Below, piece by piece: positions 4,756 to 8,729 of a DNA stretch of 64,000 bases. The DNA is from Octopus vulgaris (taxonomy: Eukaryota). Below the pieces are notes generated by a model, which saw only the letters and a program-made list of their open reading frames with translations, did not search any database and was not told the DNA's origin. The stretch covers positions 92,566,001 through 92,630,000 of the forward strand of contig OX597823.1 in the NCBI GenBank assembly GCA_951406725.2. The letters are read 5' to 3'. Positions within the stretch are counted from its first letter, which is position 1, and each line of letters starts with the position of its first letter. The translations under genes and the position numbers were made by a program.

Positions 4756-5925
4756 GTTTAGAGAGAGAACAAACATACACAGAATGTTATTACTGAAGTT
4801 TTTTGTGAAATATAGCCAAAAATTTTAGCCGTCACTGCTTTTATAAAAAAAAAATATATAATTACTCGATACATGAGATTATGGTAGATATTTGCATCGA
4901 TATTTTCTATACAACTACACGGTTGACAAGGGAGCAATTGGATACTGCTGTTTTTGGTTTATTTATTCTCATCAGTGATCGGTTTCCCTACATTTTAAAG
5001 CCACTATGAAAATCTCTTTAAATCAACTACCGTTAAGCTTATGACCAAATTGAATAGACTGAAGTCTCTCTCACGAGTGCTGATACCCATAAGACCGGAT
5101 TTTGCCCCGATTGCCATGGTGTATAAATCACTAAGATTATAACCACCACCAGCCCACTGGGTGGGACGCCGGTCACACACAAAGTAAAATCCCCAGTTAT
5201 GGCTATAACGTATTTACAGTTGAGTCTATTGGAACACCGTGAAGTGAAATGTTATGCTCAAGGATAAAATGCACCGCCCGATCCGGAAACTGAAACCCCA
5301 GTCTTACATTTGTGAGTGCAATAACCTAATCAAGAGCCGGAATTTGAACTCAGAACGTAGCGGCAGACGAAATACCGCTAAGCATTTCACCCGGCGTGCT
5401 AACGTGCTAACGATTCTGCCAGCTCATTGCCTAGAAAAGTGTGGCACTTTTCTACCGTCCTGTTGTACTTACCACATACGTTTCCGGGCTTAAATAATAC
5501 CACAGCATTCGTGAAGCGGTGGGAGCACAAGCACAAGACAAACACGCAAACGTATAAATAAATAGAAATACAGACACACATATGCGCGCACACACACACA
5601 CACACATAATTATATACATATATATATATATATATATATATATATATATATACATATATATATATATATATATATATATATATATATATATATATATATA
5701 TATATATATAGCAATAATAATTCTCTAAAAGGGATATAGACAGTAACTGCTCGATAACATAAGGGACTAAAGCCATCTGAATATGGCTAGGGACAGGGCA
5801 GGGTGGTGGGGGTGTTACTGTTGCATTTAGCCCCAGGCGAACATCGACGTCACCAGAAAGGCTCGACACCGTCACGGTGCCCTTAACCTGCAAAGGGAGG
5901 TAATTCCCCGATGAAGCGGAAACCA

Positions 5926-5971
5926 CACACGGACCATGGTTTCAAGGTGTATTGCCTATCATCGGCGTGTG
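5926..5971 (-). ncRNA. Type I hammerhead ribozyme (360-bp family); further copies at 6286-6331, 6646-6691, 7006-7051
   Basis: Reverse complement of the motif at 7162-7207. Confidence 0.8.
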
Positions 5972-7161
5972 GTAGGCCTCCGCTTCCTCGACGAATTCTC
6001 TCTCTGCAGGATCTTCTTATATAGATTTTCAAGCAAAATACATTTGCTGATTTCGAAAATCTGTTCGAAAGCAATAATAATTCTCTAAAAGGGATATAGA
6101 CAGTAACTGCTCGATAACATAAGGGACTAAAGCCATCTGAATATGGCTAGGGACAGGGCAGGGTGGTGGGGGTGTTACTGTTGCATTTAGCCCCAGGCGA
6201 ACATCGACGTCACCAGAAAGGCTCGACACCGTCACGGTGCCCTTAACCTGCAAAGGGAGGTAATTCCCCGATGAAGCGGAAACCACACACGGACCATGGT
6301 TTCAAGGTGTATTGCCTATCATCGGCGTGTGGTAGGCCTCCGCTTCCTCGACGAATTCTCTCTCTGCAGGATCTTCTTATATAGATTTTCAAGCAAAATA
6401 CATTTGCTGATTTCGAAAATCTGTTCGAAAGCAATAATAATTCTCTAAAAGGGATATAGACAGTAACTGCTCGATAACATAAGGGACTAAAGCCATCTGA
6501 ATATGGCTAGGGACAGGGCAGGGTGGTGGGGGTGTTACTGTTGCATTTAGCCCCAGGCGAACATCGACGTCACCAGAAAGGCTCGACACCGTCACGGTGC
6601 CCTTAACCTGCAAAGGGAGGTAATTCCCCGATGAAGCGGAAACCACACACGGACCATGGTTTCAAGGTGTATTGCCTATCATCGGCGTGTGGTAGGCCTC
6701 CGCTTCCTCGACGGATTCTCTCTCTGCAGGATCTTCTTATATAGATTTTCAAGCAAAATACATTTGCTGATTTCGAAAATCTGTTCGAAAGCAATAATAA
6801 TTCTCTAAAAGGGATATAGACAGTAACTGCTCGATAACATAAGGGACTAAAGCCATCTGAATATGGCTAGGGACAGGGCAGGGTGGTGGGGGTGTTACTG
6901 TTGCATTTAGCCCCAGGCGAACATCGACGTCACCAGAAAGGCTCGACACCGTCACGGTGCCCTTAACCTGCAAAGGGAGGTAATTCCCCGATGAAGCGGA
7001 AACCACACACGGACCATGGTTTCAAGGTGTATTGCCTATCATCGGCGTGTGGTAGGCCTCCGCTTCCTCGACGAATTCTCTCTCTGCAGGATCTTCTTAT
7101 ATAGATTTTCAAGCAAAATACATTTGCTGAGAGAGAATTCGTCGAGGAAGCGGAGGCCTAC

Positions 7162-7207
7162 CACACGCCGATGATAGGCAATACACCTTGAAACCATGGT
7201 CCGTGTG
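7162..7207 (+). ncRNA. Type I hammerhead ribozyme (360-bp family); further copies at 7521-7566, 7881-7926, 8241-8286
   Basis: cacacg CCGATGA t-agg-caataca-cct-t GAAA ccatgg TC cgtgtg. Helix I is cacacg/cgtgtg (6 bp, extendable to gaagcgga/tccgcttc), the core has U4C, helix II is agg/cct, helix III is the palindrome accatggt, and the GUC cleavage site falls after 7201. Confidence 0.8.
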
Positions 7208-8729
7208 TGGTTTCCGCTTCATCGGGGAATTACCTCCCTTTGCAGGTTAAGGGCACCGTGACGGTGTCGAGCCTTTCTGGTGACGTCGATGTTCGCCTGG
7301 GGCTAAATGCAACAGTAACACCCCACCACCCTGCCCTGTCCCTAGCCATATTCAGATGGCTTTAGTCCCTTATGTTATCGAGCAGTTACTGTCTATATCC
7401 CTTTTAGAGAATTATTATTGCTTTCGAACAGATTTTCGAAATCAGCAAATGTATTTTGCTTGAAAATCTATATAAGAAGATCCTGCAGAGAGAGAATCCG
7501 TCGAGGAAGCGGAGGCCTACCACACGCCGATGATAGGCAATACACCTTGAAACCATGGTCCGTGTGTGGTTTCCGCTTCATCGGGGAATTACCTCCCTTT
7601 GCAGGTTAAGGGCACCGTGACGGTGTCGAGCCTTTCTGGTGACGTCGATGTTCGCCTGGGGCTAAATGCAACAGTAACACCCCCACCACCCTGCCCTGTC
7701 CCTAGCCATATTCAGATGGCTTTAGTCCCTTATGTTATCGAGCAGTTACTGTCTATATCCCTTTTAGAGAATTATTATTGCTTTCGAACAGATTTTCGAA
7801 ATCAGCAAATGTATTTTGCTTGAAAATCTATATAAGAAGATCCTGCAGAGAGAGAATTCGTCGAGGAAGCGGAGGCCTACCACACGCCGATGATAGGCAA
7901 TACACCTTGAAACCATGGTCCGTGTGTGGTTTCCGCTTCATCGGGGAATTACCTCCCTTTGCAGGTTAAGGGCACCGTGACGGTGTCGAGCCTTTCTGGT
8001 GACGTCGATGTTCGCCTGGGGCTAAATGCAACAGTAACACCCCCACCACCCTGCCCTGTCCCTAGCCATATTCAGATGGCTTTAGTCCCTTATGTTATCG
8101 AGCAGTTACTGTCTATATCCCTTTTAGAGAATTATTATTGCTTTCGAACAGATTTTCGAAATCAGCAAATGTATTTTGCTTGAAAATCTATATAAGAAGA
8201 TCCTGCAGAGAGAGAATTCGTCGAGGAAGCGGAGGCCTACCACACGCCGATGATAGGCAATACACCTTGAAACCATGGTCCGTGTGTGGTTTCCGCTTCA
8301 TCGGGGAATTACCTCCCTTTGCAGGTTAAGGGCACCGTGACGGTGTCGAGCCTTTCTGGTGACGTCGATGTTCGCCTGGGGCTAAATGCAACAGTAACAC
8401 CCCCACCACCCTGCCCTGTCCCTAGCCATATTCAGATGGCTTTAGTCCCTTATGTTATATATATATATATATATATATATTCACTAAATTCGTTTACGGA
8501 AAACGCTTTTCAATATGCATATAAAAGCACCTATCAATGCCGGATACAGCCTAGTGATACCAAACTAGCAATAGCAATTTTGGTGGGGTTGCACCGAGCT
8601 GTAACGATGTAATATAGGATAACTATTGTAATAGTAATAATGATAATCCATGGATTTGATTTTAAATATCTTGATGTAACGCTACGCGCGAATAAATGAA
8701 TCGGAATATGTATATCCATCTGTAGATCG

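What the first reader, a model, noticed from the sequence alone, without database searches (positions are those of the whole stretch)
5710..8458. Young 360-bp hammerhead-ribozyme unit forming a head-to-head palindromic concatemer (retrozyme / circular-RNA-like element)
Seen: about 7.6 near-identical 360-bp units in two inverted arms between (TA)n runs. Each unit has a type I HHR (cacacg CCGATGA...GAAA ccatgg TC cgtgtg) at the tip of a long hairpin (cctgca/tgcagg, gaagcgga/tccgcttc, accacac/gtgtggt) plus several small hairpins, and there is no credible ORF. Known: tandem ~170-400-nt units with type I HHRs and palindromic helix III that cleave as dimers define metazoan non-LTR retrozymes (newt satellite 2, Schistosoma SM-alpha) and Penelope pLTRs, and yield monomeric circular RNAs. 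Inference: this is an active family whose transcripts self-cleave to 360-nt monomers or circles and are re-inserted by a PLE RT. I am not aware of a description of this family, or of the palindromic multi-unit form, in cephalopods.
Basis: partly seen in the sequence, partly recalled or inferred. Interest (0 to 1): 0.9.

Follow-up and report, generated by a model that had tools for sequence, protein, structure and literature searches.

The report
Two-armed hammerhead retrozyme with Penelope footprint
A 360-base non-coding repeat carrying a predicted self-cutting hammerhead RNA sits at hundreds of places in this genome as two back-to-back arrays with two fixed outer ends, a footprint that likely records a Penelope-type retrotransposon enzyme copying one RNA circle from both sides of a DNA cut.

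Summary
In detail: 3.9 + 3.7 near-identical 360-bp units, head-to-head, between (TA)n runs. It is one copy of a dispersed family (at least 769 exact insertion ends; a second copy lies at 35463-36557). The hammerhead is missed by Rfam but is supported by covariation across relatives down to 62% identity (core pair C3-G8/U3-A8/U3-G8; helix III palindrome kept in several forms).

New here is the insertion footprint. Of 90 loci, 65 are two-armed, and in 56 of these one arm ends at unit position ~320 and the other at ~364, the Penelope-like (PLE) 'tail'. Both arms carry one haplotype, either can be longer, and 17 of 57 pairs cannot be copies of each other. Best reading: a non-LTR retrozyme whose RNA circle is likely reverse-transcribed round and round by a PLE enzyme from both cut target strands. 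Cleavage, circles and the partner PLE are not shown; four PLE families checked share no sequence with it.

The class is known (coral, mussel, axolotl, Xenopus). This scan noted PLE-type ends on tRNA-bearing tandem repeats in other genomes. Verdict: new variant of a known kind, useful as a test system for PLE integration.

The parts
5611..5710 (.). (TA)n target microsatellite, left flank
5710..7130 (-). Left arm, 3.94 units; inner (5') end at unit position 24, outer (3') end at position 364, the long end. Unit position 1 = window 7419 or 7779.
5710..5753 (-). 44-nt extension (unit positions 321-364) present at this outer end only; equivalent of the PLE 'tail'
   Evidence: tail defined in bioRxiv 10.1101/2021.04.23.441226 and PMC11167929
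7125..7130 (.). Head-to-head junction; 6-nt overlap with one mismatch, 2 nt exact
7129..8458 (+). Right arm, 3.7 units; inner end near unit position 66-70, outer end at position 320, the short end
7521..7566 (+). Type I hammerhead of one unit: helix I 7521-7526 with 7561-7566, core 7527-7533 (C3 C4 G5 A6 U7 G8 A9), helix II with U-U at its base, GAAA, 8-nt palindromic helix III, predicted cut after C7560. Same motif at 7168, 7887, 8247 (+) and 5932, 6292, 6652, 7012 (-).
7704..7721 (+). 6-bp hairpin just upstream of the short end, kept in the 62%-identical sister family; candidate protein-recognition signal (inferred)
6714..6714 (-). The only substitution among the left-arm units (unit position 80); the same change sits at 7498 in the right arm, in both cases in the third unit from the outer end
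8456..8480 (.). (TA)n target microsatellite, right flank
35463..36557 (.). Second, separate insertion of the family: minus arm 35463-36027 (long end), plus arm 36028-36557 (short end), (TA)n on both sides, 98-99% identical, different haplotype

Best explanation
This is one insertion of a dispersed, non-coding, hammerhead-bearing 360-bp tandem repeat (a non-LTR retrozyme) with two fixed outer ends, likely made when a Penelope-like retrotransposon protein cut both strands of a (TA)n repeat and copied one predicted RNA circle round and round from each cut strand. Steps: (1) arrays are transcribed through several units (inferred); (2) hammerheads cut once per unit, probably as dimers through the palindromic helix III, and a host ligase closes the 360-nt monomer (inferred from covariation and from published retrozymes); (3) a PLE RT/GIY-YIG protein, probably a dimer, binds the circle and nicks both strands of (TA)n (inferred from the target and from in vitro work on a lizard PLE); (4) one nicked strand primes at unit position 320 and the other at 364 (the two ends and their pairing are shown; priming is inferred); (5) each RT runs a variable number of laps and stops at a variable place (variable arm lengths shown); (6) the two products are joined head-to-head, blunt or by short overlap (junctions shown).
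For: Dispersed and young: 204 matches, the 150 listed at 96-100% identity, in the 40 of 640 candidates scored; 769 exact long ends and 530 exact short ends followed by TA, reversed-pattern control 0. Paired ends: on contig C1 all 28 end pairs within 15 kb are outward-facing short/long pairs and no same-type pair occurs among 63 + 44 ends. Of 90 loci, 65 are head-to-head, 56 short/long, 0 short/short, 1 long/long (a 42-nt stub), 8 with a non-standard end; in the 40 loci not chosen by their ends, 28 of 29 classifiable pairs are short/long (binomial p 1e-7). One template: units differ by 0.29% within an arm, 0.30% across arms, 2.4% between loci (216 units, 62 loci); 359 non-common alleles are fixed in all units of both arms against 1 fixed in one arm only. 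Monomer bottleneck: the window's 61G is in all 7 units covering it, L034 78G in 9 of 10, L059 73G in 3 of 3, L084 36C in 8 of 8. Independent arms: short-end arm longer in 25, long-end arm in 31 of 56; 17 of 57 pairs each hold sequence the other lacks, 13.3 expected for independent arms. Arms reach 5304 nt, 14.7 units; inner ends spread over the unit, none of 154 at the first base after the cut. Hammerhead: pair 3-8 is paired in 32 of 32 distinct sequences (UA 16, CG 8, UG 8), the centre of helix III stays self-complementary in 32 of 32 (AU 11, GC 9, UA 9, UG 3). Two young, intact PLE families in the genome end at two sites 30-36 nt apart in (TA)n, with long and short ends on opposite arms in 2 of 2 two-armed copies seen. 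Literature: a lizard PLE protein nicks and extends both target strands, starts at two internal RNA sites that bound the tail, and is predicted dimeric (PMC11167929).
Against: No cleavage, circle or transcript is shown. The dominant young subfamily has C at core position 4, reported to lower activity in vitro (PMC3088659), and U-U at the base of helix II. Folding puts the core in an inactive pairing and gives probability 0 to the inter-unit helix III in a natural two-unit stretch. No partner PLE was found: four families sampled show no sequence likeness to the unit. A strict monomer circle does not explain variants shared by some but not all units (31 cases, several of them alignment-edge effects), among them this locus's mirrored change at 6714/7498. 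Inner ends of the two arms lie closer than chance (25 of 57 within 40 nt, 14.9 expected, p 0.002), and 40 of 57 pairs, this locus included, are geometrically compatible with one arm copying the other. The 359 shared alleles are not independent: most are subfamily markers in a few divergent loci. In the lizard study the two start sites did not differ between strands and hammerhead cleavage was not needed for insertion.
Confidence: 0.65

Rival explanations
1. Same element and enzyme, but the template is a linear (or multimeric) read-through transcript of a long source array rather than a monomeric circle; the hammerhead may rarely cut.
For: Variants shared by only some units, including the mirrored change in this locus; weakened core; hammerhead cleavage was dispensable for a PLE in vitro; long arrays that could act as sources exist (L070, L067).
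Against: Locus-specific alleles fixed in every unit of both arms need a one-unit bottleneck somewhere; repeated truncation of linear templates would shorten arrays each round; the core and helix III covary down to 62% identity, which points to selection on cleavage.
Confidence: 0.15
2. The inverted arm arises by fold-back or self-priming: one arm is reverse-transcribed, then copied back as DNA (or from an antisense template), and the endonuclease resolves the far end, leaving the tail on one side.
For: Proposed for PLE inversions in PMC3846280, and resolution by the endonuclease is suggested for the tail in bioRxiv 10.1101/2021.04.23.441226. Arms share haplotype; inner ends are closer than chance; 40 of 57 pairs allow containment, 10 within 40 nt; this locus fits with a 43-nt offset and a mirrored variant.
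Against: 17 of 57 pairs cannot be copies of each other, matching the expectation for independent arms; either end type can be the longer arm; the copied arm would have to stop at exactly the end type the first arm did not use; overlaps at hairpin stems can explain close inner ends under either model (inference).
Confidence: 0.12
3. Single pLTR-like monomers inserted first and expanded locally afterwards by unequal crossover, as satellite DNA.
For: Discussed for vertebrate retrozymes in bioRxiv 10.64898/2026.07.22.740005; would also make units within a locus alike; may contribute to the longest arrays and to partly shared variants.
Against: Both arms are often multi-unit at 0-0.3% divergence with precise outer ends; arms shorter than one unit plus an overlap give no substrate for crossover; multi-unit arms occur at many unlinked, very young loci.
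Confidence: 0.05
4. The palindrome is an assembly or sequencing artefact (fold-back chimeric reads).
For: Near-perfect long inverted repeats are hard to assemble; the mirrored variant could be a polishing error.
Against: The two outer ends differ by a fixed 44 nt, flanks are unrelated, junctions differ at each locus, and the same design recurs in subfamilies at 83-95% and in a sister family at 62% identity.
Confidence: 0.02

Closest known systems
Metazoan non-LTR retrozymes (Cervera and de la Pena 2020, PMC7229834: coral, mussel 350-390 bp, axolotl 330/350 bp; read: passages and parts 3-4 of 6; supplement could not be read)
   Same: Non-coding tandem unit of similar size, one type I hammerhead per unit, short palindromic helix III, U-U at the base of helix II as in axolotl HHR_Amex2, stable self-paired fold, PLEs in the same genome.
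   Different: Head-to-head two-armed form, paired fixed ends and (TA)n targeting are not described there ('inverted' and 'target site' occur 0 times in the main text). Core variants C4 and U3-A8 here. Cleavage and circles were shown there, not here.
Vertebrate non-LTR retrozymes as PLE derivatives (Li, Clavereau and Pollet 2026, bioRxiv 10.64898/2026.07.22.740005; read: parts 1-3 of 5; supplements closed)
   Same: Non-autonomous, PLE-dependent tandem hammerhead repeats.
   Different: Their link rests on co-occurrence and pLTR homology; here it rests on insertion ends, and no pLTR homologue was found. They discuss local expansion of monomers; here arrays look inserted ready-made. Only 1 of their 9 tested dimers cleaved in vitro.
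Endonuclease-bearing PLE insertions (Arkhipova et al. 2013, PMC3846280; Craig et al. 2021, bioRxiv 10.1101/2021.04.23.441226; passages read)
   Same: Partial tandems, inverted 5'-truncated copy at the 5' end, 30-40-bp tail usually on one end only, (TA)n preference in some clades.
   Different: No ORF; both arms are multi-unit concatemers of a permuted unit; tail is 44 nt; the two-armed form is the commonest form (65 of 90 loci).
Poseidon PLE of the green anole in vitro (Frangieh et al. 2024, PMC11167929; read: parts 1-2 of 4)
   Same: Two internal start sites bounding the tail, downstream of a hammerhead; AT-rich target; both strands cut and extended.
   Different: That study saw no strand difference in start site and used linear RNA; here the two ends are paired one per side and the template is inferred to be circular.

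Membership tests
Non-LTR retrozyme | Tandem units of about 170-400 nt, dispersed as dimers to multimers | tested here: met
   360-bp units, arms from under 1 to 14.7 units, on many contigs
Non-LTR retrozyme | Type I hammerhead in every unit | tested here: met
   8 motifs in this locus; 1219 exact motifs in the genome; invariant G5 A6 A9 G12 A13 A14 A15.1 U16.1 and covarying pairs in 32 distinct sequences. Variant core; by sequence only
Non-LTR retrozyme | No protein-coding capacity, no LTR framing | tested here: met
   Longest frame within the repeat 90 aa; arms abut (TA)n directly
Non-LTR retrozyme | Low G+C (under 45% in PMC7229834, under 50% in PMC7761336) | tested here: inconclusive
   47%: between the two published limits
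Non-LTR retrozyme | Self-cleavage of transcripts | not testable with these tools
   Needs in vitro transcription; folding does not favour the active form
Non-LTR retrozyme | Monomeric circular RNA accumulates in tissues | not testable with these tools
   Only assembled contigs of runs not on record as RNA were available
Non-LTR retrozyme | Autonomous PLEs coexist in the genome | tested here: met
   Young families with open frames of 775 aa and over 1100 aa
Rfam hammerhead families | Match to a covariance model | tested here: not met
   0 matches at gathering score in the window, 0 at E up to 10 in 7130-7900
PLE-type insertion | Two alternative 3' ends bounding a 30-40-bp tail on one end only | tested here: met
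   Ends at unit positions ~320 and ~364, paired in 56 of 65 two-armed loci; tail 44 nt
PLE-type insertion | Inverted, 5'-truncated copy joined at the 5' end | tested here: met
   65 of 90 loci
PLE-type insertion | Target-site duplication | tested here: inconclusive
   Cannot be read inside (TA)n
Autonomous PLE | ORF with RT and GIY-YIG endonuclease | tested here: not met
   No such ORF joined to any arm in 90 loci; PLE fragments nearby are separate insertions
Autonomous PLE | Unit is the pLTR of an intact PLE elsewhere in the genome | tested here: inconclusive
   No homology in four families sampled; the genome's PLE families were not listed exhaustively and the 3' ends of the fourth were not reached

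The most novel reading that the evidence does not exclude
These insertions are a genomic record of double-ended, rolling-circle target-primed reverse transcription: one ribozyme-made RNA circle is copied from both cut strands of the target by a PLE protein dimer, each subunit from its own fixed start site. That would explain the PLE tail and head-to-head inversion in general, and would show that retrozyme circles are the true transposition intermediate and evolve as a swarm of variants with a covarying catalytic core.
Probability: 0.45. Interest if true: 0.78.

Novelty: new variant of a known kind. Interest (0 to 1): 0.55.

Why it matters
Two questions are open in print. A 2020 review says animal retrozyme repeats show no motif that tells which retrotransposon moves them (PMC7761336), and PLE papers call the origin of tandem/inverted structures and the tail undefined. 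This family carries the PLE footprint at hundreds of very young sites, on a 360-nt template short enough to synthesise, and its end pairing and arm geometry favour priming from both target strands over fold-back. It offers a small test substrate for PLE integration, and a natural series of hammerhead core variants to assay.

Tried and rejected
Rfam: no match.

Expression: no RNA holder listed; 17 of 24 listed runs hold at least half the words, none on record as RNA. In 4 of 4 runs laid, a 390-nt contig closes on itself with period 360; tandem DNA, tandem transcripts and circles all give this, so I use it neither way.

Partner search: (a) 5' flanks of 22 loci classed as single-armed show TA or other repeats, no PLE ORF junction; (b) two 775-aa PLE families, 19 stretches fetched, no likeness of pLTR or tail to the unit; (c) a third family with a minimal hammerhead, 30 loci, none; (d) a fourth, RT-last family (Naiad-like, my label from recall), 25 loci, none within 1.5-kb flanks that did not reach clear 3' ends; (e) a motif from a sister subfamily (988 hits) and one from a distant family (15 hits) led only to more non-coding two-armed repeats.

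Linear cleaved monomer as template: inner ends do not pile up at the cut (0 of 154 at position 143, 3 at 144). Dimeric circle: one alternating pattern (L042) breaks at its third expected unit. Dimer hammerhead by folding: probability 0. Protein coding: rejected.

Literature: searches for octopus + Penelope + hammerhead ribozyme (1 work, on Naiads), octopus + Penelope + transposable elements + circular RNA (0), twin priming + Penelope + inverted (2, titles unrelated), retrozyme/rolling circle/head-to-head and searches showed no description of this family or of two-armed retrozyme insertions. The library lacks most subscription papers, and repeat databases were not searchable. Luense et al. 2017 on hammerhead variants (PMC5785218) was not held; the supplement of PMC7229834 could not be read and may list further hosts or structures.
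Full report
Observation. The region is as described. Two arrays of a 360-bp unit (5710-7130, 3.9 copies, minus strand; 7125-8458, 3.7 copies, plus strand) meet head-to-head between (TA)n runs. Numbering the unit from 7419/7779, the left arm ends at position 364 and the right at 320. 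The units differ by one substitution in one unit of each arm and one single-base deletion. The unit is 47% G+C, has no frame over 90 aa and folds better than all 100 shuffles as a line or a circle.

The family. A search of the window's genome (2.8 Gb, 227 contigs) gave 204 matches in the 40 of 640 candidates scored. Exact patterns count 769 long ends and 530 short ends running into TA, 1219 exact hammerhead motifs of the main subfamily and 988 hits of a sister-subfamily motif. Contig C1 holds 79 loci with at least one exact end (63 + 44 ends, 28 pairs), which extrapolates to roughly 1,000 loci; 769 is the firm lower bound. A second copy lies at 35463-36557. Subfamilies at 83-95% identity and a sister family at 62% (152 of 246 aligned positions) have the same build.

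The hammerhead. Rfam misses it. A loose motif was found in 64 of 90 loci; the commonest core per locus was C3-C4-G8 in 52, U3-U4-A8 in 6 and U3-U4-G8 in 6. Of 37 distinct hammerhead strings I aligned 32, dropping four cut by a junction and one with a deletion. Pair 3-8 is paired in 32 of 32 in three forms; the centre of helix III stays self-complementary in 32 of 32 in four forms; pair 10.1-11.1 is G-C in 10 and unpaired (U-U) in 22; helix I shows two compensated pairs. Overall 88.3% of cells pair, against 80.3% in shuffles (0 of 500) and 26-52% for slid partners. The sequences are related, so this is a handful of events, not 32, and two of the five measures did not beat the shuffles. The U3-A8 swap is a known variant in Schistosoma PLE hammerheads and palindromic helix III marks dimer-acting ribozymes (PMC4209133, passages); U-U at the base of helix II occurs in an axolotl retrozyme that cleaves better as a dimer (PMC7229834); C4 lowers activity in vitro but was sufficient in a viroid (PMC3088659, passages). 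Against activity: folding ties up the core and gives no inter-unit helix III. I conclude that the motif is a hammerhead kept by selection; cleavage is untested.

The insertion footprint. I mapped arms at 90 loci: 40 top hits including the window (chosen by whole-unit match, so biased to young, long copies), 40 chosen by one exact end (38 of the 51 unpaired ends on C1, plus two long loci), and 10 by the sister motif. 65 are head-to-head. With ends classed as short (314-322) or long (355-368), 56 are short/long, none short/short, one long/long (a 42-nt stub) and 8 have a non-standard or cut-off end. In the first set 28 of 29 classifiable pairs are short/long (p 1e-7). 25 loci were classed single or other, two of them with no arm of 40 nt. 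Inner ends are spread over the unit, with a broad hump at 141-240. Among 57 junctions, 28 overlap by 2 nt or more, 18 are blunt or overlap by 1, and 11 have inserted bases. A one-sided 30-40-bp tail, an inverted truncated copy and (TA)n preference are described PLE traits (passages), and the tail lies between two internal RT start sites in vitro. Two young PLE families here (RT followed by a CxxC linker and a GIY-YIG-type domain, 775-aa frames; Neptune-like by the description) end the same way, 36 and about 30 nt apart, with long and short on opposite arms in both two-armed copies seen.

One template, two primers. Units differ by 0.29% within an arm, 0.30% across arms and 2.4% (median 0.8%) between loci. 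At sites covered in both arms, 359 non-common alleles are fixed throughout, 118 are in one unit, 31 are partly shared and 1 of those is fixed in one arm only. Alleles such as the window's 61G (7 of 7 units) or L084's 36C (8 of 8, absent from the otherwise matching L070 and from the 40 loci) imply a one-unit bottleneck, as a monomer circle would give. Either arm can be longer (25 versus 31 of 56; lengths correlate, rho 0.44, in pooled and differently selected sets). In 17 of 57 pairs neither arm can be a copy of the other, close to the 13.3 (9-18) expected for independent arms. Against a clean picture: 40 of 57 pairs allow copying, inner ends lie closer than chance (p 0.002), and this locus has the same rare change in the third unit from each outer end, with geometry that fits fold-back. 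Later conversion between arms, a multimeric template, a mutation hotspot (the same change occurs in L031) or assembly error could each explain it.

Mechanism. Most likely: transcription of arrays, hammerhead cleavage, ligation to a circle (RtcB closes published retrozyme monomers in vitro), binding by a PLE protein, nicking of both (TA)n strands, priming at 320 on one and 364 on the other, rolling reverse transcription, and joining of the two products. Shown: ends, pairing, target, haplotype sharing, covariation. Inferred: every RNA and protein step. I give this 0.65; linear or multimeric template 0.15; fold-back 0.12; local expansion 0.05; artefact 0.02.

Comparison. It works like a non-LTR retrozyme and meets the sequence-level criteria; the two experimental criteria could not be tested. 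It is not itself an autonomous PLE, and no partner was identified among four families. My nine paper searches found no description of this family or of two-armed retrozyme insertions, with the limits noted. Earlier notes of this scan report a sea-squirt retrozyme and two tRNA-bearing tandem repeats with PLE-type ends in other genomes; I did not test them, and none matched this sequence.

Verdict. Real, young and abundant; a new variant of a known kind. The class and each PLE trait are published; the quantified pairing of ends on a multi-unit ribozyme repeat, and the case against simple fold-back, appear not to be. Interest 0.55.

Noticed in passing
window 35463-36557: Second two-armed insertion of the same family with a different haplotype; its arms cannot be copies of each other.
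   Followed up: yes
L188 3050-3400, L189-L203: Older sister family, about 358-nt period and 62% identical, with U3-A8 core, G10.1-C11.1, a different helix III palindrome, and the same two ends and head-to-head form.
   Followed up: partly
L040 5471-5289 (-), L046 4465-4536, L071 7794-7948, L171 2081-2019, L176 6914-6774: More distant, decayed relatives of the unit, so the lineage has had several waves.
   Followed up: no
L170-L177, L187, L188: Young intact PLE family, about 5.6-kb unit, 690-bp pLTR, 775-aa frame, two 3' ends 36 nt apart into (TA)n; no hammerhead found in its pLTR by a loose pattern.
   Followed up: partly
L178-L186: Second young PLE family, 775-aa frame, about 60% identical to the first over the RT, two 3' ends about 30 nt apart.
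   Followed up: partly
L204-L233: Very young, abundant PLE family with frames up to about 1200 aa and a minimal hammerhead with U at core position 3, about 105 nt before its 3' end in (TA)n.
   Followed up: partly
L040 5960-5680 (-): Another short head-to-head inverted element beside (TA)n, unrelated to the unit; probably PLE-derived.
   Followed up: no
L067: A complex three-base change in a hairpin recurs in 3 of 16 units, in both arms: conversion between units or a template-switch hotspot.
   Followed up: no
window 7779-8138, run X14 (organism B): A run labelled with a second organism holds a closed 360-nt unit at about 98% identity, with a change at the variable core position 7.
   Followed up: no
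window 53552-53916: Two copies of a 184-bp unit at 83% match, probably a SINE-like dimer.
   Followed up: no
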